From: Acidobacteriota bacterium
Lineage (GTDB): Bacteria > Actinomycetota > Acidimicrobiia > ATN3
DNA: 64,000 nt
Reading direction: 5' to 3'
Assembly (NCBI GenBank): GCA_003577105.1
Contig: QEUQ01000004.1
Span: 22,156 to 86,155 of the forward strand
Shown: in pieces, positions 19,361 through 45,126 of the stretch
How positions within the stretch are numbered: position 1 is the first letter of the stretch
How the letters are laid out: each line of letters begins with the position of its first letter
The notes under the pieces: generated by a model
Database searches by the model: none
What the model saw: only the letters and a program-made list of their open reading frames with translations
What the model was told of the DNA's origin: nothing
Program-made: the position numbers and the translations under genes

Positions 19361-19394
19361 GTTTGGCAATGAGCACGCCACCCTGGCGTTCAGC

Positions 19395-21430: not shown

Positions 21431-21716
21431 CAGCGTCCTCCCTGGGTTTCCGCGGATACGAGCGAACGGGCCAGAGCATTCTGCTTCAGCGGCGTGACAG
21501 CGTGAGGGAATTCGTCGCCGGCGTCGTAGCGACGATCTCCTTGTCGAAGACAGGCCGCGTCAAGTCCACGGCCGATTTCAAGGCGGCGCTCGAGATCCCA
21601 GCCGAACGGCAGGCCCTCGTGGCCGCGACCCGCATACGACCGGCTCAAGATCGTGGCCCGCGCAAGCGAATTCCGCGACTCGTGCCGAGAGCCGGTTTCA
21701 ATGCCATCACCGGTCG

Positions 21717-24398: not shown

Positions 24399-25558
24399 GT
24401 GCCGCTCCTAGCCAACCGGTAAAGCAATCCCAGTGCGTCTCGAGCCGCCCGCGACGGATCGTCAAGATCGGTGCCTCCCGTCGATGCCTCGGCCACAAGA
24501 CGATCGAGTGCATCTTTGGCGAAGCCGGAAAGTCCAAGGTCGCTGAAGTCGTCGTCGTCAGGGCGAACCGCGAGATCACTCTCGCGGTCCCAGTCTTCGA
24601 CAGCAGCGAAAAGGTCGCTCGCTCTGTCGAGAATCTCACCCAGCTCGGCTTCCTCGCGAATGCTGACCGTCCCCCGAAATGCCAGCTTTAAGATCTTTCG
24701 ATCCTTCTGTGAGAAACTCTCGAGCCAATCGTCGACAACCCTCAGGTCATCAGCCCCGTCTATCGGAAACTCCCGGCGGATGAAACTCCAGGTTCCAGTG
24801 TGGCGCTTCTCGACCCGGCACTTCGAGCCGTCGAGCTCGACGACAAGGATGTTGCCGGAATCGTCTTCGACGTAATCGGTGGGCTCCGGGGTCCCCGAGT
24901 ACCAAATGCGGCCGGTCTCCCCTGCATCGAGCGTCGAGTGCCTGTCGCCGAGGGCAACGTAGTCGAGTAGTCCGTCGCGCACATTCTGCTCGGCCGATGC
25001 GAGGGAGATAAGCGCTGGATTCGCTTCATCTGGTACCAGCGAATCGAGCTGCCCGTGCGCGACGCCAATCCGGATGCCCGACTTGCCGCCGCCTTCGATA
25101 CCCGCTTTCGCGATTGCATCCGCGAGGAGGTCTGTCAGCGGCTTACGAGTAAGCAACGGAGCTGCGATTACCTGGACTCCCGGTGACACCTCTACAAGTC
25201 CCGGCTCGTCGAGGACAACGACATTGTCCGGCTTGCGTTCCCCGAACTCGGGCGTTTGGTATATCGACGATGGATCAAGCGCGTCGTGGTTGCCCGGGAG
25301 CAAGTAGAAGGTGACTTCGCACTCGGAGATCGCTTCGAGAGTGGCATACACCGTGCGACGGTGCAGGAAGTTGGAGTCGAAGACATCGCCTGCAACGACT
25401 ACAAAATCACAGGATTCCTCAGCCGCAACGCGCCCAATCGCCCGGATGGCTTCGAGTCGCGCGTCATTGAACCGAGCTTGCGCATCGGCATCGAGGAAGT
25501 GCCGCGTCATCCCGATCTGCCAGTCGGATGTGTGGATGAATCGAGTGCCGTCAGACAT
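24395..25558 (-). CDS. SbcD/Mre11-like metallophosphoesterase (Rv1277-like)
   Basis: 'FIHTSDWQIG', 'VVVAGDVFD', 'LLPGNHD' calcineurin-like phosphoesterase motifs; internal Met at 25558 taken as start. Confidence 0.8.
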   Translation of the reverse strand: MSDGTRFIHTSDWQIGMTRHFLDADAQARFNDARLEAIRAIGRVAAEESCDFVVVAGDVFDSNFLHRRTVYATLEAISECEVTFYLLPGNHDALDPSSIYQTPEFGERKPDNVVVLDEPGLVEVSPGVQVIAAPLLTRKPLTDLLADAIAKAGIEGGGKSGIRIGVAHGQLDSLVPDEANPALISLASAEQNVRDGLLDYVALGDRHSTLDAGETGRIWYSGTPEPTDYVEDDSGNILVVELDGSKCRVEKRHTGTWSFIRREFPIDGADDLRVVDDWLESFSQKDRKILKLAFRGTVSIREEAELGEILDRASDLFAAVEDWDRESDLAVRPDDDDFSDLGLSGFAKDALDRLVAEASTGGTDLDDPSRAARDALGLLYRLARSGT

Positions 25559-25713
25559 GCGAGGTCTCACTCGGGTCTGGGTTCGACCGGTATTGAGAGA
25601 CAATGCACGTCAACTCCAAATTTGTTCCGGTTCCTGCCCGTGGAGAGATGCAGCACGGGACGGGCCACAGATGGCCATCTCGGGGGCACGAGGCACAACT
25701 GAGAACATCGTTC

Positions 25714-31100: not shown

Positions 31101-32008
31101 ACGAAGAGGAAGATCAGGCGATAGATCAGGCGCATCAGCTGGCGGTAGTAGGCGAGTGTCGAGAGCTCGCCGCTTCGCAGGCGGTCACGGAGTACGTCGT
31201 TCTTCGGGTGCTCGAGAAAGCCCGAGCCCAGGGCTGCAAGAGCCTCTTCGACCCCGGCGCGCAACTGGTCGAGGGCGCGGGTGCCTTCGCGAATGGCGGT
31301 GTCACGCCAGCGTTCGAGCCAGCAGGTCTCGGGCGGCTCTCCCTCGACCCGGGAGACATGGAAGAGCATGTACGCGAGGACAAAATCGGCGTAGAGATCA
31401 CCGTCGAAGATTGCTTCTAGGTCGAACTCGAGATATGCCTGGCGGGCGAGACTGGCGTTGTCCCGCAGGAGTCTGAGGCGCACGCCATTGGAGACGATGC
31501 CCCAGAGATGATCGTCTGAGCGGTTGAGGAACTCTTGTACCAGCGAGTGCGGGCTCGCCTGCGCGGCGCCGCGGGCGCCGGCCGTTCGCTTGTCTATGTC
31601 TAAGCGGGCGCCGATCAGGTGGATCGGCACATGGCCCCAGAAGTGCGATAGGGGGTATTCCCGCCCATCAAGCTCAGTCGCCTTGCGGGCAGGCTGGAGT
31701 CGGCCAAACCCGAGCTCTTGGAAGAGAATCAGCAACCATCGGTCGCGGGTGAGCCCGGTGGCATGGTCGTCTTCGGGGGTCTTTGCGAGTGCGTCTTTGT
31801 AAGCGGCCCATGCGCCGACGAGGCGAGTCCATGCGCGGTTGGCAGCTTCACCGAGGCGCTCGCCCGAGGCGAGGTGGTAGTCACCGGGGCGGAGGCCCTT
31901 GAGCTCGCTGTCACCCTGAGATATGCGGGCGACTATGTCGGGCGGAATCAGCGACCCCTCGACCGTGAGGGAGATGAACGACGCAGTCTCTTGGCGGCGG
32001 CGGGCCAT
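28154..32008 (-). CDS. N6-adenine DNA methyltransferase, Eco57I/PglX/DrmMI-type (1284 aa)
   Basis: 'TGSYYTPSSLIDELLD', 'VLDPATGSGHFLVAAARRIA' (motif I), 'VVGNPPW' (motif IV). Size and N-terminal region match BREX PglX / DISARM DrmMI-class enzymes. Confidence 0.85.
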   Translation of the reverse strand: MARRRQETASFISLTVEGSLIPPDIVARISQGDSELKGLRPGDYHLASGERLGEAANRAWTRLVGAWAAYKDALAKTPEDDHATGLTRDRWLLILFQELGFGRLQPARKATELDGREYPLSHFWGHVPIHLIGARLDIDKRTAGARGAAQASPHSLVQEFLNRSDDHLWGIVSNGVRLRLLRDNASLARQAYLEFDLEAIFDGDLYADFVLAYMLFHVSRVEGEPPETCWLERWRDTAIREGTRALDQLRAGVEEALAALGSGFLEHPKNDVLRDRLRSGELSTLAYYRQLMRLIYRLIFLFVADDRNLLFGPEASGEARNLYIDNYSTARLRELAERRVGTAHSDLFEILRLVTGWLGDERGCPELGLLDAIRSLSLVDAAGKRRRVDYKNLGAEELGSVYESLLELHPVLSLDAATFELKVASGNERKTTGSYYTPSSLIDELLDRALDPILDRAQQSDDPEAALLDVKVLDPATGSGHFLVAAARRIARRVAQVRTGEEEPPPEAVRHALRDVIARCIYGVDKNEMAAELCRVSLWMEAMEPGKPLAFLDHKILVGDSLVGATPALIKRGIPNEAFAPIEGDDKKIAASYKKRNKLASEGGQLSLAPQRGLESRYSAISAGALELEDAPQDSIYQVGEKEQRYRSLVASDDFEKAKLVADAWCAAFFWPAVTDGPEPVTQEVLTNLVTGDAPVPRRTLDEIDRLARENQFFHFHLAFPDVFSPKDNLAIDSDEVTGWRGGFDVVVGNPPWEQLVTAEQEFFASRDPEIASASGAERKKLIAKLESEQPELHAEFKRAVHNSHATSHFVRSSGRYPLSGTGKINSYAVFAEGMRTLASDAGRVGAVLPSGIATDDTTKFFFQDLVEQSSLVALLDFENRDRVFPAVDSRVKFCLLALTGPESPAAAADFVFFAHSTEDVARPEKQITLSPADIALINPNTKTCPIFRTRRDAEITKAIYERVPVLIDESKGEEGNPWGAQLKQGLFNMTSDSGLFRTREGLEADGWTLKGNIFQRADEQYVPLYEAKMIHQFNHRFGDYSMLPAGSKSTQLPDISDSVLADPNYQPLPRYWVPAADVSARLAGKWDRPWLLGWRDIARSTDERTAISALIPLVGVGDNFLLLLPSSGQLPVVYASLLGNIDAFVYDFVARQKVGGTHMKFFTFKQLPVFSPSTYDASAPWAPAETLADWISSRVLELVYTSWGLEPFARDLGYDGPPFAWDPERRFQLRCELDAAFFHLYGINADDAAYILDTFPIVRRHDEATYGTYRTKDTILTLMESMK

Positions 32009-32010
32009 CG

Positions 32011-34962
32011 CTACGCTCCCCCGCCCTGTGTTGCTTGTGCCTGTGGCTGGGGCACATAGACGTAGATACCGACGATGTCGCGTGGAAGCTCGGCCTCTAC
32101 ATCGACCTTGGCGCCCTTAGCTTTGGCGGCCTCGCGCACTCGCATGTGCTGTTCTGCGACGGCATCGGCACGCCGGAGCGCCTCGGCCTCAAAGACGGGC
32201 GCCAGGCCGGCGGCGGATTCGAGCGCGGCGGCGATGCGTGTTCGCGCATCCTCTGACGCGATGTTGCCGTCGGGGCGGGTATCGAGAAGCGCCTCGATCT
32301 CGTCGGGCTCAAGCCACTCAGCTTTGCCGGTGCTGTTGCGCCATGCGAGCACACCACAGTCTTCGACAAGTGACCGCTTGAGGCCGCTCGGCGTCTTGGC
32401 CGTGAGGTGGAACCTGATGCGAAGCAGCACAAGGGTCGTCGCCGTTGTGACACCCGAGGTGCGAAATGCGCCGCACCGCCTTGCGGGCGAGATCTGGCCG
32501 GCCCCGGGTTCGTCAACGGGGTCAATTGCGAGATCGAGAAGGTAGGTCGCCAATCCGTTGACGAATGGGTGAGTGCGGCTGAAGTACTGCGCTCCCTTGG
32601 GGGCGGGGAAATCAAATGTCGCAGTCAGATCGTTAGAGCCGTTGTGAGTTGGCCCAGGCGCCGTGTTGGTGCTCGCGTAGTCGCGCAATGCCCGAGGTGT
32701 ATGTGCGAGGTTGATTTCAACGGTATCGAGGGGTTTCGCGGTCGCAGTCTTTGCCGTGCCGCCAAGTGCCGGGATCGCGGTCAGTATGAAGTCGCGCACC
32801 GACCCCGGAGAGCCCATCGCCCTGCGCATCTCATCGACGACTTCGCCTACTTCTGCAGCGTCGATGCCGTGCTGGGCAAAGATCGTGCGGGAGCGCTTCT
32901 CGGTGTCGGCGGCTTGTTCCCACTCGCCGAAGAGCTCCTCGCGCTTGGGTTTCAAGAACTCATCGAGAAGGCGGAGCTGTTCGCCCTGTGAGCCCGACTG
33001 CTCTCTTAGTAGGAGCCCCTCGAAGATCGCCTCGACGAGGTTGTTCGAGTCGACCGGTACGGGTACCGAGACACCAGTGGCCTGGCGAATCGCCTTGTGC
33101 TTGCGGATCAAAATGTCGAGAACGATGCCGTCGATCTGGTTGTCGGTGCTGTAGTAGGTGAGGACTCGCACCTTGGGGCTCTTCTGGCCGAAGCGATCGA
33201 CGCGCCCATCGCGCTGCTCGTGCCGGGTTGGGTTCCACGCCAGGTCGTAGTGGACTACTGCGTCAAACCAGTCTTGTAAGTTGATGCCTTCGCTCAGGCA
33301 ATCGGTGGCAACGAGGATCCGCTTCTCTGACTTCGCGAGTTCGCACACCCGGGCCTCGCGCTCATCGTGTGGAAGGCGGCCGGTGACCGCGATGACCTCA
33401 GTGCCCTTCTTGAGCTTCTTTCGCAGCTGCTCGGCGAGATACTCGGCGGTTGGAATGAAGCGGCAGAAGACAATCGGACTGAAGCCGTCTTTGAGAAGTT
33501 CGGCAATGAGCTTTGTTGCCTTCTTCAGCTTGGGGTCGCCATCACCGGCGAGGGCCTCTGCTGCCTTGGCCATCTCTCGCAGACGACGTTGCTCGCTCTC
33601 GGCCACAGCCGGGCTTGTTTCGGATTCGATCTCGTCAGAGATTGAACCGGGGATTACGTCGCTTGGGTCACCTGCATCGTCATCGGCGAGGTCGAGAACA
33701 GTCCGGCGCCCGACCTCGTCGGCCTCTTCCGGTGTCTCGGTATTGATTGCCGCCGCCCGGGTTCTCAGCGTCTCGGCAGCAGCCATTGGCGATGACCCGA
33801 GAGACCTCAGCAGTGCAAGGGCCGACCACCACTGGACCCGGTTGCGATACGTGCCGGTCTCGGTGTCGCGGATCTTCTCTCTCGCGTAGTCGACGGCGCG
33901 GTTGAAGAGCTTCTGATACTCGGGTGTCAGCTCATAAGCGGCTTCGGAGTCTTCACGATCAGGGAACGATGTATCGGTCTCGAGGTAATGGCGGATGTCG
34001 CCCCTGCGGCGCTGGACCATGTGGCGCGCAAGAGCTCTCCGGTGCTTTTCATTTTGCGGGCCGTTCAGATCGTCGGGCATTTCGCGGAGCTTGCTGTTGA
34101 GTAATGCCACGAGCGACTTGAACGATTCGGGCTTGCCGCTATGAGGCGTCGCAGTAACAAGGACAATGTGGCGATCGTCGTCTTCGGCGAGCTTGGTCAC
34201 GAGCTGGTTGCGCAGATGGCGATTGTGGGTCTCGGCTCCAACCGAACAAGTGTGAGCCTCGTCGACAATCACCAGGTTAGGACATGCCCTGACGAAGTCA
34301 TCGCGGCGACGATCCGACTTGATGAAGTCGATCGAGACGATTGTCACGGGATGCGCTTCAAAGAGCGACTGGCCGAAACTGGTCTGGCGCTCTAGGCGTG
34401 AGACAGTCGACGGCAGTACGACTTCGGCTTCGATGTGGAACTTTTCTGACAGCTCGCCACGCCACTGCTCGGCAAGATGAGGCGGGCAGAGCACGCAGAG
34501 CCCGGTTGCGTCACCTTGTTCGAGAAGTTCCTTGGCAATGAGCGCGGCCTCGATGGTCTTGCCGACGCCGACATCATCTGCAATGAGAAGGCGCACCGGG
34601 TCGAGACGGAGCGCCATGAGCAAGGGCACCAGTTGGTAGGGGCGGGGTTCGACGGCGACCTTGGCGACTGATCTGAAGGGGCCGGCTGATGATCTGAAGC
34701 CGATACGCAGTGAGTCTCTCAGTAGGCGGCACGAGAGGTAGTCGCCGAGCTGAGAGGGGTCGGGCGGGTCGAATTGCGCTGACTCGACCTTCTCGAGCGT
34801 CGCGAGCACACCGGCTGCCTCGATGGCAGAGCCGCCGAGAGGGTGGAGCACCAACAAATCGCCTGCTGATTCGGGCTGGACGATCCACTCACGTCCGCGG
34901 GCACGCACGATCGACCCTGGCGAGAAGCGCTCGGCTGCGGGGGCCTGCTCGCTCACACTCAT
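32011..34962 (-). CDS. SNF2-family helicase (DrmD-like)
   Basis: 'LLIADDVGVGKTIEA', 'DEAHTCS', helicase-C 'TDCLSEGINLQ...RDGRVDRFGQ'; start overlaps the stop of the upstream gene (ATGA). Confidence 0.85.
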   Translation of the reverse strand: MSVSEQAPAAERFSPGSIVRARGREWIVQPESAGDLLVLHPLGGSAIEAAGVLATLEKVESAQFDPPDPSQLGDYLSCRLLRDSLRIGFRSSAGPFRSVAKVAVEPRPYQLVPLLMALRLDPVRLLIADDVGVGKTIEAALIAKELLEQGDATGLCVLCPPHLAEQWRGELSEKFHIEAEVVLPSTVSRLERQTSFGQSLFEAHPVTIVSIDFIKSDRRRDDFVRACPNLVIVDEAHTCSVGAETHNRHLRNQLVTKLAEDDDRHIVLVTATPHSGKPESFKSLVALLNSKLREMPDDLNGPQNEKHRRALARHMVQRRRGDIRHYLETDTSFPDREDSEAAYELTPEYQKLFNRAVDYAREKIRDTETGTYRNRVQWWSALALLRSLGSSPMAAAETLRTRAAAINTETPEEADEVGRRTVLDLADDDAGDPSDVIPGSISDEIESETSPAVAESEQRRLREMAKAAEALAGDGDPKLKKATKLIAELLKDGFSPIVFCRFIPTAEYLAEQLRKKLKKGTEVIAVTGRLPHDEREARVCELAKSEKRILVATDCLSEGINLQDWFDAVVHYDLAWNPTRHEQRDGRVDRFGQKSPKVRVLTYYSTDNQIDGIVLDILIRKHKAIRQATGVSVPVPVDSNNLVEAIFEGLLLREQSGSQGEQLRLLDEFLKPKREELFGEWEQAADTEKRSRTIFAQHGIDAAEVGEVVDEMRRAMGSPGSVRDFILTAIPALGGTAKTATAKPLDTVEINLAHTPRALRDYASTNTAPGPTHNGSNDLTATFDFPAPKGAQYFSRTHPFVNGLATYLLDLAIDPVDEPGAGQISPARRCGAFRTSGVTTATTLVLLRIRFHLTAKTPSGLKRSLVEDCGVLAWRNSTGKAEWLEPDEIEALLDTRPDGNIASEDARTRIAAALESAAGLAPVFEAEALRRADAVAEQHMRVREAAKAKGAKVDVEAELPRDIVGIYVYVPQPQAQATQGGGA

Positions 34963-37900
34963 GGCGTACCGAAGATCTCGGGGTAGCCGGCTGCAATCTC
35001 AGGCCAAGCCGACTTGTCGTATCCGAAAACAATGATGGTGTAGCCGGCATCGGTGAGGGCGTCGCGCTTCTCGGCGTCGCCCTTTGCCACATCAGCGTTG
35101 TCGTGAATAGGGCCGTCTATGAATACAGCAGCTGAGTACGACTTATAGAAAAAGTCGGGTTGTACGTAGTGGCCATCGATCTTCACCTGTGCTGCATCAG
35201 GCATGTCGAGATTGGCTTCGTCAACGAACTTCAACCACTCGCGCTCGAGGTCTGAATCGCATAGCTTCTCGAGTCTTGCCCGGTGCTCGGCACGTGTCAG
35301 CGGCCCCGGGGATGCAGCAACCTTTGCGTTGGTGAGATCCATCAGGAGCTGGCGAATCGCCTTGCGGTCGAGTGCCTTGTGGTCTCGCTGATTGCGATAG
35401 GTCATGAGGCAGTTGTAGCAAGCTTTCTCGCAGTCTTCTTCGGCGTTGTCGGCGCGGCGCAGGTCGTCGCCGGTCTCGGGATCAAAATGACAAATCTCAA
35501 GTGCCTTACCTGCGATGCCCGCTAGAGCATTGGGGTCATCGACTAGCTGACGAAGTACTCCGGCGCCGCCTTCGGCTGCTTCATAGAAGAGGAGCCTCCT
35601 CGGGTCGCCCCCGGTCGGAAGGGCTTCGGAGGCAATCTCGTTCTCTTCAAGTTCGTAGACGATGCCAATTGCCGCGGCGAGTGCTGCTTGGAGGGACTTG
35701 ATCTCTGCGGTGCCGAGGTCATCGCCGGGCTCGATCAGAAGGCAGTTCTTCTTGTCATCCACATAGGGAACAACCATGCGCTTGCTTGCGCTCATCGGGT
35801 CGCCGGGGTCTTCGTCTTCGGACAGCTCGTCGTTCCGGCCCCAATAGCCATTTTGGGTGTCGAGCTGGAAGCCCCAGGCATCTTGCTTCTTACGCCTGCG
35901 CCACCCGGCATTGACACGCCAAATGGTTGCCGAGCTTCCGTAGCTGAGCCGACCCCACTCGTCGCCATTGATCTCGACCTGGCCAATGCGCCTGTGAGTG
36001 CTGTTGCCTGAGCCGCCGAATCTGAAGAAGGCATGGATCTCGTAGCCGATGCGGAGGCGGTCCTCTTCATCGGAGGTAATGCGCTGGCGCCGCCTCGTGT
36101 TTGCGTTGCGCATCCGAAAGAGATCGGAGCGGGCAAAGCCGAGAGCCCCACCACAGAGGTGGCACTCGTCGGGCCCCGGAGGTTGAGGTATCTCGTGAAT
36201 GTATCCACATGATTCGCAGAGCTTGGCCGTACTCGTCAGGGCGTTCATCTCGTCGGTGTCTTTGCTGCCGGCGAAGATCACACCGTTGATCTGATACTTC
36301 GCCCCTTCGTGGTAGACGATCGCCCGGGGACCGAACTCGGAGATCGCTAGGAAGCGAGGCCGGCTCAGGTATTCGTCGAAGCCCTTGTTCCGCCTGCGGG
36401 CCGGAATGTATGCCGATATCGGCAGGCGAGGGAAGCTGTAGCCGGGGAGGAACCCTTGGCTCGCAAAGTAGCGGTACGAGTAGAAGTCAGACTGGCTGAC
36501 TTTTCCCTCTGAGCTGAGCAAGATCTTGATCTGTTGCTCGGCCTCATTGCGCAGACGCGTGGCGGTCTTTCGTGCCTCGGCTGCCGTGGCGGCGTTCTGA
36601 ATCACCGCGTTCTGGTTCCGGTGCTGGGATTGGGCGGCAAAGTAGAGCTCACGCCAGCGGTCACATGCCCGGTCAAGCTGGCTGGGGCACTGACTGATTA
36701 CCTCGTCGAGCCAATAATCTGAGTACCAGTCGGGGTCTCCCGGTCGCAGATCGATTTCGTCGAGCATTGATGCGGCCCTAGTCCGCGCCGTAGATGCAGC
36801 GGTCTTGCTTCTCAGCGCCTCGGCGACGTGGTCTTTGAGGGGGTAGTGGCCGGTCTCATTTTCGAGATCGAGGATGTCACGCAGCGACTTGTGGAGATCC
36901 ACGCCGGTGGCGCGGAGCCAGATCGCTTGAACGTGTGAGCGAATCAGATCTTCGTTGTGTAAGTCGATGCGGGGCAGGGAGACTTCGCCCGAGACCATCG
37001 CATCTTGGCGGCGGAAGAAGTACTGGTCGTGCGGGCTGCCGGCGGTGCAGTAGGTGATGACAATCGCGGGCTGGCCCTGACGCCCTGCTCGCCCTGAGCG
37101 CTGCGCGTAGTTGGCGGGCGAAGGTGGAACGTTTCGCATGTGGACCGCGTTGAGATCGGCGATATCTACGCCGAGCTCCATGGTCGGCGAACAGTAGAGG
37201 ATCGGCAGCTGCGCGGATCTGAAGTTCTCTTCGCGTCGTTCGCGCACCTCGTAAGGGACCTGCGCGGTGTGCTCGTGGGCTTCTAGACCCTTTGTTGAGA
37301 GCGCGGCTAAGCGGTAGAAGTCGGTGAAGAACTCGTTGGCGGCATCTGGGATTGCGGTGGCCGTCTCGTTGTCTTGGCCAGTGCCCTCTGCGTCGCCAGT
37401 GCCCTCTGCGTCGCCTCCGCTCGTGCGGAGTTCGTCTCTGACGGGGGTGCCGTCGCCCGGAACCCATTTCATGCCCGCTGCGACTAGTTGATAACCACCT
37501 GCTTGGTCACCTTTGGCTTCGTCAATGCACTCGACCAACCCGGCTTTGCGGAGATTCTCGAGCAGATCGAGAAGTACCATCGGCACTTCATCGGATCCGA
37601 TCGGCGACTCTAAGTTGGGGAAAGTACTTTTCTTTCGTAGGAACTGGCCGATGAGGCTCCGTGCCGAGCCATAGCGGTTGAGGCTGGACTCACCCCGCTT
37701 ACTGACCCTGGGATACAACAAGCCCGACTTCTCGAGGTTCTCACCTTCATCAATTGCCCACGGCTCGCGAAGACGCTGTTCGGAAACGCTGCGAATTCGC
37801 TCTTGTTCCACCGGGTCGAGATACGAGACCTTGATCAGCAGTTCAGTCCGCATGAACTGGAGGAGTGTTGTAGCGACTTTGGCGCGCACCTCGGGTGTGG

Positions 37901-40304
37901 CCGTTGTGAGGGCGAGGTGGAGGCCGGTCCAGTCATCGTCGTTGGCACAGAGCTCATCGAGTGACCGGTACTCGATCTTGAGTAGTCCACACTGCTCAAG
38001 GTTGGGCGAGGTGATGCGCCAGCCGCGCTTGAGGTCTTGGTAGAGGCGATAGCCGAGGACTTCGCGCATGGCACGGTAGGTGTCGTCTTTGGCCGCGTAC
38101 TTGACCTCTCGATCTGCCGCGAAGTCCTCCAAGCCAAGGTTGAGCGAATCAAGTACGCGATGAGGAAGTTCCTCATGGGTGAGCCCCTCGGGATCTGCCT
38201 CCTCGGCTGCGTTGAGGAGAGCCGCTCGGATCATCCCCGTCTGGATGAAGTCGTTGAAGTGACCGGCCTGAAGTGATGCATCTTGCCGGTCGTCGGTGAA
38301 GCTGAGGAGCTTGCGGGCTTGAGCCGCCAGATCTTGGTCGGCTTTGAGGCGGCGAACAAGCGACAGCGAGAGGATCGTCGTTGCGGTGGATCGCCCTTCG
38401 CTAGATAGCGTGCCGAGCTTGGCGAAGTCCGAGCGCTGCTTCGACGAGTAGGTGACCCCACACTTGATACAGAACTGGAATGGCGCATAGATCAGCGCGC
38501 AGTCGACACCGCTGCCGGTTGCGTCTGCTCCGTTCTGTGCGCCATCGGTGCCAACTCGAATCGCTCTGGGTATGTGCTTCTTGCTGTTGCGCTTGACCCG
38601 AGCGTCAGAACCGCTCCCTTCGATCCAGTCTTCTGGAATCAGCGAGATCTGTTCTGAAGGGCCGACCGGCCAAGGCTTGGTCTCACTCATATATAGGAAT
38701 GCAGGTTTCTTGCCAGAATCCTCGAAGCGATCGGTCAGCTCTCTGGGCGAGAAGGTGAGGTCGCTTTCGTCTTCGTCGTCGGAGGCATATACGACGTAGT
38801 ACTCCTGCCCGCATCCCGGATTTCGACAGAAGGCGATGGGCAGGAGAATCTTGTCGCGATCGCCGGGAACGAATTGCTGTGCTTCGGTTGTAATGTGGCG
38901 TTGATCGGCCGGTTCAAGCGATGCATAGGCGCTCGTTCCGCGGCCGATGAACTGGTGAAGTCTGAATGCGAAGACCGGGAAACCCGTTGCGGGGTTGGTG
39001 ATCGCGTTGCCGTCGAGGAGGGCTTGGCGGATGGCCGATGTGGCGGCATCGGGGTCTGTCGACGTGAGCTGCGCGAGTACTTCGGCCGCACCTCCGTGGC
39101 CGTCAATAGGCCGTGGCTTCTGGCGAATGTAAGTGCCGGTTTCGTCTTCACGTATCAGGCCGAAGGTGGACTCGATCCATTGCGCTAGCGGGTCTCCTTG
39201 GAGGTCAGCGAAATTCTCCGGCCGGTTGTAGTTGTTGATGCGCTTGCCCAGCGCATCCCGAAAAATCTCGCTGTTGAGATCGGGTTCGTGCGTCGCGCGG
39301 CGAAGTGTTTCGCCGATGACGTTCTTAGCATCGACCGTTGTGCCAAAGATCTGCGTGGCAACCTCAGCGACACGAGTCCGTTGCTCTTCTATGGAGCTGC
39401 CACCGGCGAGCGTTGCCGACGTGCCAACGCATTGAAGACTCGGTGAGTTGCAGGTTTCCCGCACCCGCCTGGCGAGCATCGCAACATCTGCGCCTTGGCG
39501 CCCCCGGTAGGTGTGGAGCTCGTCGAAGACCAAGAACTGAAGGCCCTCGGCTCCGGCAATCAGCTTGGCTTCTTGGGGGCGAGTCAAGATGAGCTCGAGC
39601 ATGACGTAGTTGGTGAGCAAGATGTCGGGAGGGTCAGTGATGATCGCCTGCTTGGCCTCCTCGTTTTCCTGTCCGGTGTAGCGGCGGAAGGTGACGGGCG
39701 GTTTGTTCTGCGGGTAGCCGTTGCAGAGGAACTTGGCGAGCTCGCCCTCTTGGGAGTTGGCGAGCGCATTCATCGGGTAGACGACAATCGCCTTGATCGA
39801 GCCTCCCGAGCCTTGACGCAGCACCCTGTCGACGATGGGAACGATGTAAGCAAGGCTCTTGCCCGACCCCGTGCCGGTGGTTAGCACGTAGTTCGCCTGG
39901 GTTGCTGCGGCTCTGATGGCCTCTTCCTGGTGCTTGTGGAGCTGGATCAGCTCGCCCTCGCGAGAGGTGCCGTCATCATTCTTGGCCTTGTCACGCCGAA
40001 AAATGCGTTCACACTCCGGGTGGAGCAGGCCTTCGGCGATTAGGTCTGGGATCGGAGCGCCACGCTCGAACGAAGGATTTAACTGGATGCGCGGCTCGGG
40101 CCAGAGGAGGCCACGGTCGAAATAGTCGCTGACTTTCGCCTCGATGCGCGCGTCAGCAATGTTGATGAAACTCCTCACGTATGAGGAGAAGTCATCGATC
40201 AGTCCTTCGCGGAGATCGAATATGTCCACTTGGTTCCGCCCCAGTCGGCCGCCCCGAATTGCAGCTTGTGACCGACCAATTGGGCTTCGCGACAGCGCTT
40301 GCAC
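34959..40304 (-). CDS. Giant (1781 aa) DEAH-box helicase fused to a DUF1998-like domain (as in DrmA+DrmB; DruE-like) with C-terminal DUF559/Vsr-like nuclease-fold domain
   Basis: Helicase motifs '[15 protein letters not shown]', 'FDELHTY', '[13 protein letters not shown]'. DUF1998-like Cys cluster '[33 protein letters not shown]'. C-terminal '[21 protein letters not shown]...[18 protein letters not shown]' resembles DUF559. Confidence 0.7.
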
Positions 40305-40340
40305 GGCCAGCTCGATGCTGCGTCGAGAAGACTAACGCGC

Positions 40341-40351
40341 GGGTGTGACAC
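40341..40351 (-). promoter_or_regulatory. Recurrent motif (GTGTCACACCC) 37 bp upstream of the DISARM-like operon start
   Basis: Same core as the motifs upstream of TA toxin genes. Confidence 0.3.
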
Positions 40352-40777
40352 TCTGCCGTGAGTCTTCCGGCGGGACTCGTTGTGCTCACACGGATTTGTC
40401 GCACCTGGTGGCTAGTGTGCGACTTGCCGGGGCTGACCGTCAGCCGCTTCCTCTTGGTGCTATCTCGCTCAAGGGGAGCCATGCGTTTCATCCGCAACGT
40501 CGAGGACGACAACGGTGATTTGGTCGAACTCATCTACTACTGCAGCTGGCTCTGCTTTTCGACTGAGTCTGACGCGGCGGTCGCGTCGCTGACCGGCGGT
40601 GCCTGGCCGTGCTTAGACTCGGAGCTGACTCTTCCGGCGGTTTGCCGAGGGTGTGGCCGACCCGTCGGTGCAAGCGACTCGATTGAAGTCGAACTGGAAC
40701 TGCATTCGTCGGCCCATGGCGCCTCGACGGATCTCGCTGAGCGATACTTTGGGTCTGGTTTTCGAGAAAGGGGGCGC

Positions 40778-41911
40778 ATGGCGCGCACGCCCAAAGTTCC
40801 GGTTACTCCGAGCCTCTTGAGCTGGGCCAGGGAGCTTTCGGGATACTCGCTGACCGACATCGCCAAACGCGTAGGGGTCAAGGACGCTACCCGTGTGGCC
40901 GCGTGGGAGGCCGGCGACGATCAGCCGACCCTCGCTCAAGTTCGAAAGCTCGCTGCGAGCTATGGCCGAACTCCAGCGTTCTTCTTTCTGAAGACCCCTC
41001 CGCCATCAGATCTTCCTAAGGAACCGGATTTTCGTGGTCTCACCGTCCGCGGCAGCCTAAGTCCAAAGCTCCGTCGTGAAATGCGCCTCGCTGCAGAGCG
41101 CCGTGCTAGCTACATTGAACTGCACGGTGCAGATGACTTCAGGCTCGCGGAGTTAGGCGTCTCGCTAGATCAGCCCGAGACCGCGGCGCGAGTGGTTCGC
41201 GACGCATTGGGCGTCTCGATTCGCGAGCAGTTCGAAGCGCGCGACAACAGTTGGGCATATTCGCTCTGGCTGTCCGCGATCGAGAATTCGGGGGTACTGG
41301 TCTTTCAAATGAGTCGGGTACCGCTCGCGGAGACACGCGGTTTCTCGATATTCGAGCCTGAGTCACCCGTGATTGTCTTGAACGGCGCTGATGTCCCTCA
41401 GGCGAAGAGTTTTACGCTCTTCCATGAGTTGGGCCATCTCCTCGAGAGTTCTGGCGGCATTTGTGGCTGGACAGACGATGCGGCTGAGCGACGTTGCAAC
41501 GCTTTTGCTGCCGACGCGCTGATGCCAGGTGCTGAGTTTCTGCACGAGCTCGGCGACCGCGACCCAATCGAGGCCATTTCCGATCTGGCAAGTCGTTTCC
41601 GGGTCAGTCGTGAGGCGGCCGCAGTTCGATTGAAAGTACTCGGCAGATTGGAACAACAGGATCTAGACCGCATTCGCCAGGAGACAGCTGACTGGGTCGC
41701 CGAAAACAGGCAGCGAGCAAGCGATCGGGAGGGCGGGCCACCGCATCACCTGATCCACCTTCGCAATCTCGGTCAGCGTTACGTCGAGGCTGTGCTCGAC
41801 GCCTATCAAGACGATCGGATCACGTTCGCCGATGCTGCCTTCTACCTAGATGCGAAGGTCCCGACGATTCAGCGCATGGAGCAAGCGCTTCAAGATCGAA
41901 ATGCGAGCTAG
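40778..41911 (+). CDS. HTH (XRE) + ImmA/IrrE-family metallopeptidase (COG2856) regulator
   Basis: HTH 'LTDIAKRVGVKDATRVAAWEAG' and HEXXH 'FTLFHELGHLL'. The longer ORF from 40358 has a non-conserved N-terminal extension, so the internal Met at 40778 is preferred. Confidence 0.7.
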   Translation: MARTPKVPVTPSLLSWARELSGYSLTDIAKRVGVKDATRVAAWEAGDDQPTLAQVRKLAASYGRTPAFFFLKTPPPSDLPKEPDFRGLTVRGSLSPKLRREMRLAAERRASYIELHGADDFRLAELGVSLDQPETAARVVRDALGVSIREQFEARDNSWAYSLWLSAIENSGVLVFQMSRVPLAETRGFSIFEPESPVIVLNGADVPQAKSFTLFHELGHLLESSGGICGWTDDAAERRCNAFAADALMPGAEFLHELGDRDPIEAISDLASRFRVSREAAAVRLKVLGRLEQQDLDRIRQETADWVAENRQRASDREGGPPHHLIHLRNLGQRYVEAVLDAYQDDRITFADAAFYLDAKVPTIQRMEQALQDRNAS

Positions 41912-41914
41912 GCG

Positions 41915-42400
41915 GTGCCGGCTGTGCCCGCCGACAGTTACTGCATCGACACCAATGTCGTTATGGACCTCGGGCGTGTCTATCCGCGCGACGTGTTCCC
42001 AGGCGTGTGGGAATCAATCGAGACGCTCGTCGTCGAGGGGAGGGCTGTCATCCCCAGAGAGGTCCTCGATGAGTTGGAGCGACATGATCCCGACGCCTAC
42101 GAATGGGCGAAGGGACTCGATGACTTCGTGGTTGAACCTGACGATCACGAAATAGCAATCGTCGCGGAAATCGCCGAGAACCATCCCGATTGGGTGCAAG
42201 GGCGCAAGAACGCCGCCGACCCCTTTGTGGTCGCGAACGCGTCTGGTCACGGGAGAATTGTCGTTACACATGAAAGGCGGCGCGGGCCGGGCGTCTTGGA
42301 TCACAATCTCGGCATACCCAACGTCGCTGACGAATACGATCTCGAATGCATCTCGCTGCAAGAACTCGCTCGCCGTGAGCAATGGCAATTCAAGCGATAG
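41915..42400 (+). CDS. DUF4411-like PIN-fold protein (partner of ImmA/IrrE regulators)
   Basis: 'YCIDTNVVMDL' PIN-like N-terminus, 4 bp after the ImmA gene. This pairing is a known TA-like module. Confidence 0.55.
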   Translation: MPAVPADSYCIDTNVVMDLGRVYPRDVFPGVWESIETLVVEGRAVIPREVLDELERHDPDAYEWAKGLDDFVVEPDDHEIAIVAEIAENHPDWVQGRKNAADPFVVANASGHGRIVVTHERRRGPGVLDHNLGIPNVADEYDLECISLQELARREQWQFKR

Positions 42401-42472
42401 GTCGGCTCAAGTCCCCCAACCGAATCGCGTGGCAGCAGCGACGGGTGGAAGGCTGGCTGCACTTCGCTTGAG

Positions 42473-44380
42473 TCACAGGCAGCCGTCGTAGAGTTCGGCG
42501 TTGACCTTGAATCCGCTGTCAATGAAACGGACGACGTCATTTTCCGTGTGGAAGACCAGCGAGGTGCCGACGTTTGTCGGAAGGACTGGATCGACCTGGA
42601 CGATTGACCACGGCGGGTACTCTCCCTTGATGTTGAGATGGGTTCGGCCGGAGTAGGTACCGATGACCTGTGTTCCCGTATTGCCGATTCCGAGACCTTC
42701 TGCAGTGAGACTTGTCGAAGTTCCGTAGACGCGAGTGCTCACGATCACGCCGTAGTTGAGCATGAACCGGATGTCCCAGCCTGTCGGAGCCGCGTAGCGG
42801 CAAGAGCCATCGCCATAGAAATCCATACCAAGCGTGTATGTGAATCCCCCGATCTGGGCAGCCTCTGTAATCGACATCCCCGCGCGAATCGGGCCAATAC
42901 CTCTATGGTGGATGCGCGATGCCGCCGACAGGTAGGGCTCAGGCGCAGCCGGCGGACCGGGCTGGGCAGCGCCAACATGGCCGCCGTCTGCGAATCCTTT
43001 ATAGGTGAAATACATCGGGCGCTCGGTGACGATTGGCTGGTCTGACGCGACGCGCGCCGAGTCATCGACCCCGACGCCAAGATCGTTGCCGACCGCGAGC
43101 GTTCGGCGAGAGTTGGCCGGAACCATCAGTGATGTCGACGCCGTGGCCCCACCGGGGAACTGGTATGCGACGGTCACCCGTGCGTCGATGCCACCGGGAT
43201 TCTGAAACGTCAGGTACTCGTCGAATCCGGGGCCTGTGTAGCCCTCGGCGAAGTAGCCGGTTGTAAGCGGCGCGCTCTGCCCGACGACGACGCTGCCGCC
43301 ATCGACCGAACCCTTGTAGTTGAAGTACATCGGGCGCTCGGCCAGCACAGGCTGGTCTGAGGTGACTTTGGCCGAGACCTCTTGGTTGGCACCGACAACG
43401 TTGTTGACCCGCACGGTCGAGCGGGCGTGTGGCGGCACCACAAGCGCATTGCCAAAGGGCGTGCCCGAAGACGACTGATATGCGATCGAGACGTTGGCCG
43501 CGACCGATCCGGGGTTCTGCAGCGTGATGTACTCGTCGAATCCGGCGCCGGTATAGCCCTCGGCGAAGTAAAGGGTGGTGGCGGCTGCACTTTGCGCGGG
43601 CGAGACGTGTCCGTCGGTGATCGACCCGTGATAGGTGAAGTACATCGGACGCTCGGCCAGTATCGGCGCATCCGAGGTGAGCTTGGCACTCACCTCTTGG
43701 CCGGGGCCGACCTCGGCGTTGACGTTGACGGTCTGGCGCGAGGTCGGAGCGACTACATGTTGGGTGTTGATCACCGGTCCGGTGCCGAGCTGGTACTCGA
43801 TGTCGACGGTGGCCGGTGCGCCACCCGGGTTCTGCAACGTGATGTACTCGTCAAAGCCCAGGCCGGTGTACCCCTCTGCAAAGTACATCGTCTGGGCGAG
43901 CTGGCTCTGGCCGGATGCGACGTGCCCGCCCGTGACCGACCCCTTGTAGGTGAAATACATCGGGCGCTCGGCGAAGATCACCTGATCTGACTCGATCTTG
44001 GCGCTCACCTCTTGGCCGGGGCCGACCTCTGAGTTGACGTTGACAGTGGCGCGTGAGTTGGGCGCGACCTGGCGGCTGGTGTTGATCGTCGCCCCGGTGC
44101 CGGTCTGGTAAGTGATGTCGACGTTGGCCGTGGCCGTTGTCGGGTTCTGAATGGTGAGGTACTCCTCGAAGCCCGGCCCCGTATAGCCCTCGGCGAAGTA
44201 GAGGGTTGTTACCGGGGATGGGATGCGGGCCGTGTCGTGGGCCCTGGCCGTTGCGGTTGCCGGTGTCGCGGGCGTCGCGGCGATCACGAGCGCGGCGATT
44301 GCGGCGAGAGCTGCCGCCCTTCGGCGTTCTTGCGGCCGCCGCCGCCTCTGCCTCTGGTTCGTCCGACCCGTCTGCGCCAT
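42473..44380 (-). CDS. Tat-signal secreted protein with four tandem ~100-aa repeat domains
   Basis: 'RRRRPQERRRAAALAAIAAL' Tat-like N-terminus. Repeats of 'YFAEGYTG.GF.EY.T.QNP....V...YQ...G......VAP.SR.TV.VN..VG..QEVSAK..SD.P...ERPMYF.Y.G'. Confidence 0.55.
   Translation of the reverse strand: MAQTGRTNQRQRRRRPQERRRAAALAAIAALVIAATPATPATATARAHDTARIPSPVTTLYFAEGYTGPGFEEYLTIQNPTTATANVDITYQTGTGATINTSRQVAPNSRATVNVNSEVGPGQEVSAKIESDQVIFAERPMYFTYKGSVTGGHVASGQSQLAQTMYFAEGYTGLGFDEYITLQNPGGAPATVDIEYQLGTGPVINTQHVVAPTSRQTVNVNAEVGPGQEVSAKLTSDAPILAERPMYFTYHGSITDGHVSPAQSAAATTLYFAEGYTGAGFDEYITLQNPGSVAANVSIAYQSSSGTPFGNALVVPPHARSTVRVNNVVGANQEVSAKVTSDQPVLAERPMYFNYKGSVDGGSVVVGQSAPLTTGYFAEGYTGPGFDEYLTFQNPGGIDARVTVAYQFPGGATASTSLMVPANSRRTLAVGNDLGVGVDDSARVASDQPIVTERPMYFTYKGFADGGHVGAAQPGPPAAPEPYLSAASRIHHRGIGPIRAGMSITEAAQIGGFTYTLGMDFYGDGSCRYAAPTGWDIRFMLNYGVIVSTRVYGTSTSLTAEGLGIGNTGTQVIGTYSGRTHLNIKGEYPPWSIVQVDPVLPTNVGTSLVFHTENDVVRFIDSGFKVNAELYDGCL
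43015..44209 (-). repeat. Four tandem ~300-bp coding repeats inside 42473-44380
   Basis: Seen as four near-identical peptide repeats in the ORF. Confidence 0.6.
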
Positions 44381-44725: not shown

Positions 44726-44920
44726 ATGAAGGTGAGAGAGGTGATCAAGTTGCTCGAACGAGACGGCTGGTACCAAGTCGCGATGCGCGGCAGCCATCGG
44801 CAATTCAAGAACACGAGAAAACCCGGGCGGGTGACAGTCGCCGGAAGCCCTTCTGACGATCTTGCTCCGGGTACGCTTAACAGCATCCTCAAACAAGCCC
44901 AATTGAAGGGTCGATACTGA
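44726..44920 (+). CDS. hicA: HicA-family toxin
   Basis: 'KLLERDGWYQVAMRGSHRQF' HicA signature, 64 aa. Confidence 0.8.
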   Translation: MKVREVIKLLERDGWYQVAMRGSHRQFKNTRKPGRVTVAGSPSDDLAPGTLNSILKQAQLKGRY

Positions 44921-45126
44921 TGCGCTACGCCGTTGTCATCGAGAAGGCTGACGGGAATTTGTCGGCGTACGTACCCGATCTTCCGGGATGTGTCGCGACC
45001 GGCAGAACCCGCGAGGAGGTCGAGAGGAACATCCGCGAGGCAATCCGATTTCATATCGACGGCCTGCTTGAAGACGGCGCGCCGGTGCCAGACCCAGAGT
45101 TCGACTTCGAGTACGTCGACGCCTAG
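44920..45126 (+). CDS. hicB: HicB-family antitoxin
   Basis: 'YAVVIEKADGNLSAYVPDLPGCVATGRTREEVERNIREAI' UPF0150/HicB; overlaps the hicA stop. Confidence 0.8.
   Translation: MRYAVVIEKADGNLSAYVPDLPGCVATGRTREEVERNIREAIRFHIDGLLEDGAPVPDPEFDFEYVDA

What the first reader, a model, noticed from the sequence alone, without database searches (positions are those of the whole stretch)
40778..42400. HTH-ImmA/IrrE metallopeptidase + DUF4411 PIN-like pair divergently adjacent to the DISARM-like operon
COG2856-type regulators (XRE HTH + HEXXH peptidase, 'FHELGHLL') paired with DUF4411 PIN-fold proteins form a recognised TA-like / stress-switch module. Here the pair is transcribed divergently from the defence operon. 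The shared 470-bp intergenic region carries the recurrent GTGTCACACCC motif. It could regulate the defence operon, for example by proteolytic derepression on DNA damage.
Basis: partly seen in the sequence, partly recalled or inferred. Interest (0 to 1): 0.5.

Follow-up and report, generated by a model that had tools for sequence, protein, structure and literature searches.

The report
HTH-protease plus PIN-nuclease toxin–antitoxin pair
The two genes are a real but already-described, self-contained toxin–antitoxin-type module (a DNA-binding zinc-protease paired with a VapC-like PIN nuclease) sitting in a defence island, and nothing shows that it controls the defence operon next door.

Summary
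Gene 40778-41911 (+) encodes an XRE-HTH + Peptidase_M78 (ImmA/IrrE) protein. Gene 41915-42400 (+) encodes a full-length DUF4411 protein with a VapC-like PIN fold and four conserved acidic residues.

The pair is an autonomous, mobile two-gene module:
- In 74 of 79 informative genomes from many phyla, DUF4411 lies directly downstream of this ImmA clade.
- Full-length homologues of both proteins share one PDB entry (9VZY).
- The architecture was described by Matelska et al. 2017 and lies in the RosmerTA/ImmA zone of known toxin–antitoxin and defence systems.

The regulatory reading is not supported:
- None of 82 related pair loci carries the DruE-like/SNF2/methylase cassette.
- Seven plasmid copies of that cassette lack the pair.
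- The motif faces the cassette and recurs upstream of four other operons, three of them toxin–antitoxin operons.
- However, about one locus in seven has the pair flanked by restriction-modification genes, four times embedded inside such an operon, so some coupling to methylation-based defence remains possible.

The "470-bp intergenic region" is not empty. A conserved small Cys-rich ORF starts at 40481 and runs in frame, without a stop, into the ImmA gene.

Verdict: a new member of a known kind, of low to moderate interest.

The parts
40778..41911 (+). Antitoxin-like gene: XRE HTH + Peptidase_M78 (ImmA/IrrE, RmrA-like) + conserved C-terminal helical domain, 377 aa
   Evidence: Pfam hits. PADLOC RmrA E 2.4e-28 and capP E 3.6e-17. 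Alignment A1 shows H216/E217/H220/E237 conserved. AF2 model pLDDT 92.9. Foldseek best matches are CapP, IrrE and PprI. PDB 9vzy_A E 2.9e-46 over the full length. SD GAAAGGGGG lies upstream of the ATG.
41915..42400 (+). Toxin-like gene: DUF4411, PIN-like (VapC-like) nuclease, 161 aa (alternative start GTG 41924)
   Evidence: Pfam PF14367 E 3.2e-28, full length. D12, E53 and E120 invariant, D102 nearly invariant. AF2 pLDDT 93.8. Foldseek top hits are VapC/FitB toxins, probability 1.0. PDB 9vzy_D E 7.5e-13.
40481..40777 (+). Small Cys-rich ORF (conserved core about 40481-40675). In frame with the ImmA gene with no stop, giving a 476-aa ORF if read from 40481.
   Evidence: phmmer finds 16 homologues of 68-241 aa (most 68-127) matching residues 1-65/72, E down to 2.4e-24. 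Invariant C21, C25, C55, C58 and GG.WP. SD AAGGGGAG upstream. The gene caller on the identical contig called 476 aa. Absent upstream of ImmA in all other pair loci.
40431..40445 (.). Perfect palindrome GGCTGAC-c-GTCAGCC, 36 nt upstream of ATG 40481. Candidate operator for the HTH (inference).
   Evidence: The closest homologue, L097, has GCGCTGA-gctg-TCAGCGC 41 nt upstream of its ImmA ATG. The full palindrome is unique in the window.
40329..40351 (-). TGTCACACCC-N6-TAGTCT promoter-like element facing the DruE-like operon. It belongs to the neighbour rather than to the pair.
   Evidence: The element is conserved upstream of the small-ORF homologues in L087 and L098.

Best explanation
The pair is an autonomous, horizontally mobile, type II toxin–antitoxin-like module of the HTH-COG2856(ImmA/IrrE)+DUF4411 kind. 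This kind belongs to the RosmerTA-type family of Zn-peptidase antitoxin systems.

Shown:
- Gene 1 encodes an XRE HTH fused to an intact M78 zinc-peptidase and a conserved helical C-terminal domain.
- Gene 2, 3 nt downstream, encodes a VapC-like PIN-fold protein with the four acidic catalytic residues conserved.
- The two genes travel together across phyla, and homologues of both share one PDB entry.

Inferred:
- The HTH-peptidase protein binds and neutralises the PIN nuclease.
- It represses its own operon, with the palindrome at 40431-40445 as the candidate operator.
- On a trigger such as phage infection or DNA damage, the peptidase is activated or the antitoxin is lost. The freed nuclease then cleaves RNA and arrests growth (abortive infection or addiction).

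Its position beside the DruE-like/SNF2/methylase cassette reflects defence-island clustering, not a dedicated regulatory link.
For: Domains, motifs and folds.

RmrA is the best PADLOC family, E 2.4e-28.

Module conservation:
- DUF4411 lies directly downstream on the same strand in 74 of 79 informative genome loci. These span Actinomycetota, Acidobacteriota, Pseudomonadota, Chloroflexota, Verrucomicrobiota, Bacteroidota, Bacillota and one archaeon. Genes are usually overlapping or less than 20 nt apart.
- The pair is also kept in the closest metagenomic homologues, which have unrelated neighbours.
- One locus (L007) has the two genes fused in a single ORF.

PDB 9VZY holds 3 chains of a full-length homologue of protein 1 and 6 chains of a homologue of protein 2.

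Literature:
- HTH-DUF955 + DUF4411.1 was predicted as a three-component TA (PMC5499597).
- RosmerTA is a Zn-peptidase antitoxin plus a toxin of unknown function. The delta-rmrA mutant could not be transformed, possibly because of toxicity (bioRxiv 10.1101/2022.05.11.491447).
- An ImmA antitoxin hub paired with PIN-like toxins is described in PMC10440598.

Independence from the cassette.
Against: - No toxicity, neutralisation or phage-defence data exist for any DUF4411 pair in the literature I could search.
- DUF4411 matches no PADLOC RmrT model, so it is not a catalogued RosmerTA.
- The role of the peptidase is unknown. It could cut itself, the toxin or a phage protein.
- Immediate neighbours are enriched for R-M genes, and four loci have the pair embedded inside an R-M operon. 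This hints at coupling with methylation-based defence that a purely autonomous model does not explain.
- The in-frame small ORF upstream is unexplained.
Confidence: 0.7

Rival explanations
1. First reader's model. The HTH-peptidase is a CapH/CapP- or ImmR/ImmA-like switch that represses the divergent DruE-like/SNF2/methylase operon and derepresses it by proteolysis on DNA damage or infection. DUF4411 would be an accessory.
For: - The M78 domain resembles CapP and IrrE in sequence and fold.
- The genes are divergently arranged.
- An imperfect 41-bp palindrome is centred on the motif in the shared region.
- In other genomes the pair is embedded co-directionally inside type I and type III R-M operons, and R-M genes are the commonest immediate neighbours.
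Against: - None of 82 related pair loci has this cassette nearby.
- None of 7 plasmid copies of the cassette has the pair.
- The HTH and the protease are one polypeptide, so there is no separate repressor substrate as in CapH/CapP.
- The conserved partner is the toxin, not a defence operon.
- The motif is oriented as a promoter element of the minus-strand operon and is shared with four other operons, three of them TA operons.
- A separate conserved ORF lies between the cassette and ImmA.
Confidence: 0.12
2. Three-part unit. The small Cys-rich ORF (40481-) belongs functionally with the pair. It would act either as a genuine N-terminal fusion giving a 476-aa antitoxin, or as a co-transcribed third gene, for example a sensor, a controller, or a link to the neighbouring R-M-type gene.
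For: - The ORF is in frame with no stop and has its own SD.
- The candidate operator lies upstream of the small ORF at the same distance as in L097 upstream of ImmA.
- A homologue of the small ORF in L087 sits beside a different HTH-M78 + PIN-like (DUF3368/PDC-S70) pair and divergent from a type IIG R-M gene.
Against: - It is absent from all 82 other ImmA-DUF4411 loci.
- Homologues are stand-alone proteins, mostly 68-127 aa.
- One homologue lies among housekeeping genes.
- ImmA keeps its own SD and its family-typical N-terminus.
- Only two independent co-occurrences were found.
Confidence: 0.1
3. Immunity or induction switch of an integrated mobile element. This would be a classical ImmR/ImmA-type role controlling excision or a lytic programme.
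For: ImmA/IrrE peptidases are typical of ICE and prophage switches (PMC10440598). An ISL3 transposase and several TA modules lie in the window.
Against: - There is no integrase, excisionase or phage gene next to the pair.
- Neighbours in the other loci are diverse chromosomal or R-M genes.
- The partner is always a PIN nuclease.
Confidence: 0.04

Closest known systems
HTH-DUF955(COG2856/ImmA)+DUF4411.1 predicted three-component TA (Matelska et al. 2017, PMC5499597)
   Same: Identical architecture: a fused HTH-Zn-peptidase gene followed by a single-domain DUF4411 PIN-like gene with conserved acidic residues.
   Different: Nothing substantive differs. That paper states that in most Actinobacteria DUF4411.1 is monocistronic. 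Here several Actinomycetota loci do carry the pair.
PDB 9VZY / 9VZZ (HTH cro/C1-type protein with a DUF4411 family protein)
   Same: Both window proteins align over the full length to the two kinds of chain (E 2.9e-46 and 7.5e-13). This implies a direct complex, here with 3 chains of one protein and 6 of the other.
   Different: The relatives are distant. I found no associated paper or functional data.
RosmerTA (RmrT/RmrA) anti-phage TA systems (Millman et al. 2022; Ernits et al. 2023)
   Same: An antitoxin with an HTH and an M78 Zn-peptidase. RmrA is the best PADLOC family. Toxin partners are swappable and include PIN-like domains (PMC10440598).
   Different: DUF4411 hits no PADLOC RmrT model. 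Phage defence is untested. Gene order here is antitoxin first.
CapH/CapP, ImmR/ImmA, DdrO/IrrE protease-repressor switches
   Same: An M78 metallopeptidase with the same fold and an XRE-type HTH.
   Different: In those systems the protease and the repressor are separate proteins and the output is transcription of a neighbouring operon. Here they are fused and tied to a toxin, and there is no conserved regulated neighbour.
VapBC type II TA
   Same: A PIN-fold toxin with four acidic residues. The best structural matches are VapC and FitB.
   Different: The antitoxin is a 377-aa HTH-metallopeptidase rather than a small AbrB/RHH/Phd-type protein. Sequence similarity to VapC is marginal.
PrrC / RloC (RNases embedded in type I R-M loci)
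   Same: In L049 and L070 the pair sits between hsdS and hsdR. In L064 and L084 it sits between mod and res. PrrC and RloC are likewise linked to type I R-M systems and act after their neutralisation by phage proteins (PMC12322248).
   Different: The protein families are unrelated. Here the inhibitor is a dedicated antitoxin. In this window the pair is beside, not inside, the methylase-containing operon.

Membership tests
Peptidase_M78 (ImmA/IrrE) | Pfam PF06114 match above the gathering score | tested here: met
   68 bits against a cutoff of 22, residues 171-286
Peptidase_M78 (ImmA/IrrE) | HExxH zinc motif plus a downstream Glu ligand | tested here: met
   H216-E217-x-x-H220 and E237 in the motif 'ExxCNxFAxxxLxP'. 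E217, H220 and E237 are invariant and H216 nearly invariant.
Peptidase_M78 (ImmA/IrrE) | IrrE-like fold | tested here: met
   AF2 pLDDT 92.9. Foldseek matches CapP 7t5t, IrrE 3dti and PprI 8sln at probability 1.0.
Peptidase_M78 (ImmA/IrrE) | Proteolytic activity on a defined substrate | not testable with these tools
   Needs biochemistry
DUF4411 / PIN-like superfamily | Full-length PF14367 match | tested here: met
   99 bits, profile positions 1-159 of 159
DUF4411 / PIN-like superfamily | Four conserved acidic active-site residues | tested here: met
   D12, E53 and E120 invariant, D102 at least 90% conserved in 29 sequences
DUF4411 / PIN-like superfamily | PIN (VapC-like) fold | tested here: met
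   AF2 pLDDT 93.8. VapC and FitB are the top Foldseek hits, TM 0.5-0.65.
DUF4411 / PIN-like superfamily | Nuclease activity and toxicity | not testable with these tools
   Needs an experiment
HTH-COG2856 + DUF4411 TA-like module | Conserved adjacent, co-directional, tightly spaced gene pair | tested here: met
   3-nt gap in the window. The pair is present in 74 of 79 informative loci across phyla.
HTH-COG2856 + DUF4411 TA-like module | Direct protein-protein complex | tested here: met
   By homology only. PDB 9VZY contains chains homologous to both proteins.
RosmerTA (as catalogued in PADLOC 2.0.0) | RmrA antitoxin model match | tested here: met
   PDLC03949 E 2.4e-28, residues 9-294
RosmerTA (as catalogued in PADLOC 2.0.0) | RmrT toxin model match | tested here: not met
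   No PADLOC hit for DUF4411 at E <= 0.01
RosmerTA (as catalogued in PADLOC 2.0.0) | Anti-phage activity | not testable with these tools
   Needs plaque assays
CapH/CapP-type regulator of a neighbouring defence operon | Separate HTH repressor that is the protease's substrate | tested here: not met
   The HTH and the protease are one polypeptide. There is no second small HTH gene in 40.3-42.4 kb.
CapH/CapP-type regulator of a neighbouring defence operon | Conserved linkage to the regulated defence operon | tested here: not met
   0 of 82 pair loci carry the cassette. 0 of 7 cassette loci carry the pair.
CapH/CapP-type regulator of a neighbouring defence operon | Operator in the defence operon's promoter | tested here: inconclusive
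   Palindromes exist at 40327-40367 and 40431-40445, but binding is untested.
DISARM (label given to the neighbouring operon) | DrmA helicase, DrmB (DUF1998) and a methylase as the core | tested here: inconclusive
   The 1781-aa protein has DEAD + Helicase_C + MZB/DUF1998 in one chain, but its best hit is DruE (8e-95) and DrmA scores only 1e-14. The SNF2 protein scores best against DpdE (2e-252), ahead of DrmD (7e-89). The methylase matches DrmMI (9e-63). In Nocardioides pNOCA01 an annotated drmA/drmB DISARM lies beside a copy of this cassette, which itself is annotated only generically.

The most novel reading that the evidence does not exclude
The small Cys-rich ORF and the conserved TGTCAC-N10-TANNNT divergent promoter may form a portable controller unit for R-M-type defence genes. 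It appears beside a type IIG enzyme in L087 and L098 and beside the DruE-like/SNF2/methylase cassette here. In this genome it has become fused in frame to the HTH-peptidase antitoxin. That would wire expression of a PIN-nuclease abortive-infection module to the defence operon's control region. The pair could then act as a PrrC-like back-up that fires when methylation-based defence is neutralised. The repeated embedding of the pair inside type I and type III R-M operons elsewhere is consistent with this.
Probability: 0.08. Interest if true: 0.55.

Novelty: new member of a known kind. Interest (0 to 1): 0.25.

Why it matters
As it stands, this is one more copy of a widespread, bioinformatically described TA/defence module whose complex has already been solved structurally. 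It mainly refines annotation: the correct starts, the hidden small ORF, and the fact that the pair is not a regulator of the neighbouring cassette.

It would matter more if the recurrent physical association of this module with methylase-based defence reflects function. The association covers type I and type III R-M operons elsewhere and the DruE-like cassette here. A functional link would give a testable example of a PIN-RNase back-up layer, or a protease-gated controller, coupled to R-M-type immunity.

Tried and rejected
- A GC3 frame plot of 40358-40777 could not decide whether the stretch is coding. Homology settled the question.
- The sigma-70 consensus scan found no promoter in 40200-42600. 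The single 'terminator-like' hit is the 40431-40445 palindrome.
- An Rfam scan of 40150-42550 at E <= 1 found nothing.
- Both metagenome-contig scans found nothing: the DruE-like protein and the small-ORF alignment.
The scan with the small-ORF alignment gave one distant phage-contig relative.
- Literature searches for the 9VZY paper, or for experimental work on DUF4411 or M78+PIN systems, found nothing specific.
- I considered taking the 476-aa ORF as the true protein and did not adopt it. All homologues are about 377 aa, with a conserved N-terminus at ATG 40778.
- I rejected TTGTCA as a -35 box, because its spacing to TANNNT is only 10-11 nt.
- The three loci without DUF4411 (L044, L058, L060) showed no alternative toxin next door.
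Full report
**Observation**

The ORF list and sequence show a plus-strand ORF ending at 41911, followed 3 nt later by a 161-codon ORF (41915-42400).

Pfam results:
- The product read from ATG 40778 (377 aa) matches HTH_3 (residues 16-68, E 1.4e-8) and Peptidase_M78 (171-286, E 8.4e-19).
- The second product matches DUF4411 end to end (E 3.2e-28).

A search of 5.8 billion proteins with the longer reading (from ATG 40481) found 314 relatives. Apart from the identical sequence, every listed hit is 304-446 aa (most 365-395) and covers only about 78% of the query. An alignment of 29 of them starts at a conserved 'MA-RTP.APV..LLxWARE'. The family start is therefore ATG 40778, which has a good Shine-Dalgarno sequence (GAAAGGGGG). 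E217, H220 and E237 are invariant and H216 is nearly invariant.

For DUF4411, 29 aligned homologues show D12, E53 and E120 invariant and D102 nearly so.

Structure:
- The DUF4411 AlphaFold model (pLDDT 93.8) matches VapC and FitB PIN toxins best in the PDB.
- The ImmA model (pLDDT 92.9) matches CapP, IrrE and PprI through its peptidase domain, and C-proteins, SinR and DdrO through its HTH.

**The pair is a conserved module**

A scan of one genome per species returned 80 loci with full-length relatives. Profile searches of their six-frame ORFs gave these counts:

| Outcome | Loci |
|---|---|
| Clear DUF4411 directly downstream, same strand | 74 of 79 informative |
| No DUF4411 | 3 |
| Weak remnants only | 2 |
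| Contig ends at the ImmA gene (uninformative) | 1 |

- The genes usually overlap or lie within 20 nt.
- The hosts range over at least eight bacterial phyla and one methanogen.
- In eight loci DUF4411 is split over two frames. Several of these are long-read MAGs, so sequencing error is possible.
- In L007 the two genes form one ORF.
- The closest metagenomic relatives (64% and 59% identity) also keep the pair, but with unrelated neighbours.

PDB sequence searches found entry 9VZY. It has three chains of a 393-aa 'HTH cro/C1-type' protein (profile E 9e-97; window protein E 2.9e-46, full length). It also has six chains of a 'DUF4411 family protein' (E 7.5e-13). Entry 9VZZ is the DUF4411 protein alone. 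By homology, the two proteins bind each other directly.

**What is known**

- Matelska et al. 2017 (PMC5499597) classed DUF4411 in the VapC-like PIN group. They described DUF4411.1 genes downstream of fused HTH-DUF955 (COG2856/ImmA) genes as potential three-component TA systems.
- PADLOC's best family for the window protein is RmrA, the RosmerTA antitoxin (E 2.4e-28).
- RosmerTA was defined as a Zn-peptidase antitoxin plus a toxin of unknown function. The delta-rmrA mutant could not be transformed, possibly because of toxicity.
- Ernits et al. 2023 describe ImmA as a hub antitoxin domain that also pairs with PIN-like toxins.
- DUF4411 itself matches no PADLOC model. The pair is therefore RosmerTA-like rather than a catalogued RosmerTA.

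**Does it regulate the neighbouring operon?**

The neighbouring genes on the minus strand are:

| Product | Domains (Pfam) | Best PADLOC hit |
|---|---|---|
| 1781 aa | DEAD + Helicase_C + MZB/DUF1998 | DruE |
| 983 aa | SNF2 | DpdE, E 2e-252 |
| 1284 aa | N6-methylase | DrmMI |

Forward test:
- tblastn of these proteins against all 82 non-identical pair loci found no copy of the cassette. The only hits were one distant DEAD helicase and one GmrSD.

Reverse test:
- The helicase has full-length relatives of about 43% identity on 69 plasmids.
- In six annotated contexts the three-gene cassette is intact. These are Nocardioides pNOCA01, two Rhodococcus plasmids, Deinococcus radiodurans MP1, D. 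radiophilus and Roseomonas.
- Nothing like the pair lies upstream in any of them.
- Profile scans of all seven fetched loci found no ImmA-clade or DUF4411 ORF.

Each unit is therefore independent of the other.

The motif:
- The exact 11-mer occurs once.
- TGTCAC-N9-11-TANNNT occurs five times: 5013(-), 6161(-), 7057(-), 40350(-) and 44648(+).
- Every copy points at a downstream gene, 25-57 nt before the first start codon.
- The downstream genes are a Zn-ribbon gene, a Gp49/HigB-like toxin, two HicA toxins and the DruE-like helicase.
- It is thus a promoter-associated element of the cassette and of other mobile operons, not a mark of the ImmA gene.

- Upstream: HsdS ×5, N6_N4 methylase ×4, HsdM ×1, of 73 scanned.
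- Downstream: ResIII ×8 (including HsdR ×4 and type III Res ×2), N6 methylase ×2, of 69 scanned.
- In L049 and L070 the order is hsdS-[pair]-hsdR, with 17-nt gaps between DUF4411 and hsdR.
- In L064 and L084 the order is mod-[pair]-res.

Association with methylation-based defence is therefore recurrent. It could be simple island clustering, or a PrrC/RloC-like back-up role (analogy only; PMC12322248).

**The 'intergenic' region**

An exhaustive phmmer search with the 99 codons upstream of ImmA found 16 small proteins matching residues 1-65/72 (E down to 2.4e-24). Their consensus is MRYxRxxED..GDLVE..YYCS..C...GGAWPCLDS.L....C..CG, with invariant C21, C25, C55 and C58.

In the window this ORF has its own SD and runs in frame into ImmA without a stop. 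Gene callers on two independent assemblies therefore report a 476-aa protein. The ORF is absent from all other pair loci.

Its homologues sit in these contexts:
- L087, L088, L098 and L099: divergent from the N-terminus of a type IIG R-M enzyme (PADLOC E 1e-11).
- L087: also next to a different HTH-M78 (RmrA, E 8e-28) + DUF3368/PDC-S70 pair.
- L085: in a housekeeping context beside a short divergent ORF that resembles that N-terminus (my reading of the translations).

The TGTGACA/TANNNT element is conserved in the upstream regions of L087 and L098.

The remaining true spacer (40305-40480) holds a perfect palindrome, GGCTGAC-c-GTCAGCC, 36 nt before ATG 40481. The closest ImmA homologue has GCGCTGA-gctg-TCAGCGC 41 nt before its own start. 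I take this as the candidate operator of the HTH. That is inference only.

**Mechanism**

Shown:
- Domain identities, intact catalytic motifs in both proteins, and tight spacing of the genes (3 nt).
- Conservation of the pair across phyla.
- Complex formation by homologues.

Inferred:
- The HTH-peptidase neutralises the PIN nuclease and autoregulates the operon.
- A trigger activates the peptidase or destabilises the antitoxin, which releases an RNase that arrests growth.

Unknown:
- The trigger.
- The protease substrate.
- The RNA target.
- Whether the small ORF or the neighbouring cassette has any input.

**Verdict**

This is a correctly spotted but ordinary member of a described family. The proposed regulatory role over the neighbour is not supported by comparative genomics. 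The hidden small ORF and the recurrent R-M embedding are the only features worth a further look.

Noticed in passing
window 40481-40777 (+): Conserved small Cys-rich ORF (4 invariant Cys, a 'GGAWPCLDS' motif, no Pfam or PADLOC hit) inside the supposed intergenic region. It is in frame with ImmA and has no stop. Sixteen homologues, most 68-127 aa, are stand-alone proteins.
   Followed up: yes
window 5013(-), 6161(-), 7057(-), 40350(-), 44648(+): TGTCAC-N9-11-TANNNT occurs five times, always oriented towards a downstream operon: a Zn-ribbon gene, a gp49/HigB-like + XRE operon, two hicAB operons and the DruE-like cassette. The 10-11 nt spacing is too short for a -35/-10 pair. It may be a shared operator or an unusual promoter type. 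It is also conserved upstream of the small-ORF homologues in L087 and L098.
   Followed up: partly
window 28154-40304 (-); L089-L094: A three-gene cassette is conserved at about 43% identity on plasmids of Deinococcus radiodurans (MP1), D. radiophilus, Nocardioides JS614, Rhodococcus and Roseomonas. It comprises a giant DEAD+DUF1998 helicase, a SNF2 helicase and a 1200-1375-aa N6-methylase (split into two genes on MP1). PADLOC splits its best hits among DruE, DpdE and DrmMI, so it is neither canonical DISARM nor Druantia.
   Followed up: partly
L049, L070, L064, L084 (also L048, L054, L067, L075): The ImmA-DUF4411 pair is embedded co-directionally inside R-M operons: hsdS-[pair]-hsdR in type I and mod-[pair]-res in type III. 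R-M genes are the commonest immediate neighbours of the pair.
   Followed up: partly
window 41915-41962: The public MAG annotation of this DUF4411 protein (P0121, 145 aa, 'Acidobacteria bacterium' DCC49_02230) starts at M17. That start would remove the first PIN catalytic Asp (D12), so it is probably miscalled.
   Followed up: partly
L007 9779-11584: In a Pseudoclavibacter MAG the ImmA-HTH and DUF4411 genes form one uninterrupted ORF (an antitoxin-toxin fusion, or a lost stop codon).
   Followed up: partly
L006, L016, L018, L020, L033, L034, L041, L051: DUF4411 is split over two reading frames in 8 of 80 loci. This could be toxin pseudogenisation or, for the long-read MAGs, indel errors.
   Followed up: no
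window 40778-41911, protein residues 84-86, 229 and 240: A D-F-R motif (D84 and R86 invariant, F85 nearly invariant) lies in the low-confidence linker between the HTH and the peptidase. Two nearly invariant cysteines (C229, C240) flank the third zinc ligand. The motif may be a cleavage or docking site, and the cysteines a redox or metal site.
   Followed up: no
L087 729-2517 (-): Next to a homologue of the small ORF lies a different Zn-peptidase pair: HTH-M78 (RmrA, E 8e-28) + a DUF3368 PIN-like protein that matches PADLOC candidate PDC-S70. An SNase-like gene lies upstream and a type IIG R-M gene lies divergent.
   Followed up: partly
window 44726-45126 (+), 6390-6994 (-), 5304-6106 (-): Further TA modules lie in the window: two hicA/hicB pairs and a Gp49(HigB-like)/XRE pair.
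   Followed up: partly
window 17955-28011 (-): The rest of the island holds a GmrSD_N + Schlafen/AlbA_2 protein (765 aa, PADLOC HEC-05), a metallophosphatase (402 aa) with an SMC/LmuB-like ATPase (893 aa), two unannotated ORFs and an ISL3 transposase.
   Followed up: no
L096 5989-6210: A distant relative of the small Cys-rich protein (73 aa) lies on an IMG/VR viral contig, so the family also occurs on phage-like elements.
   Followed up: no
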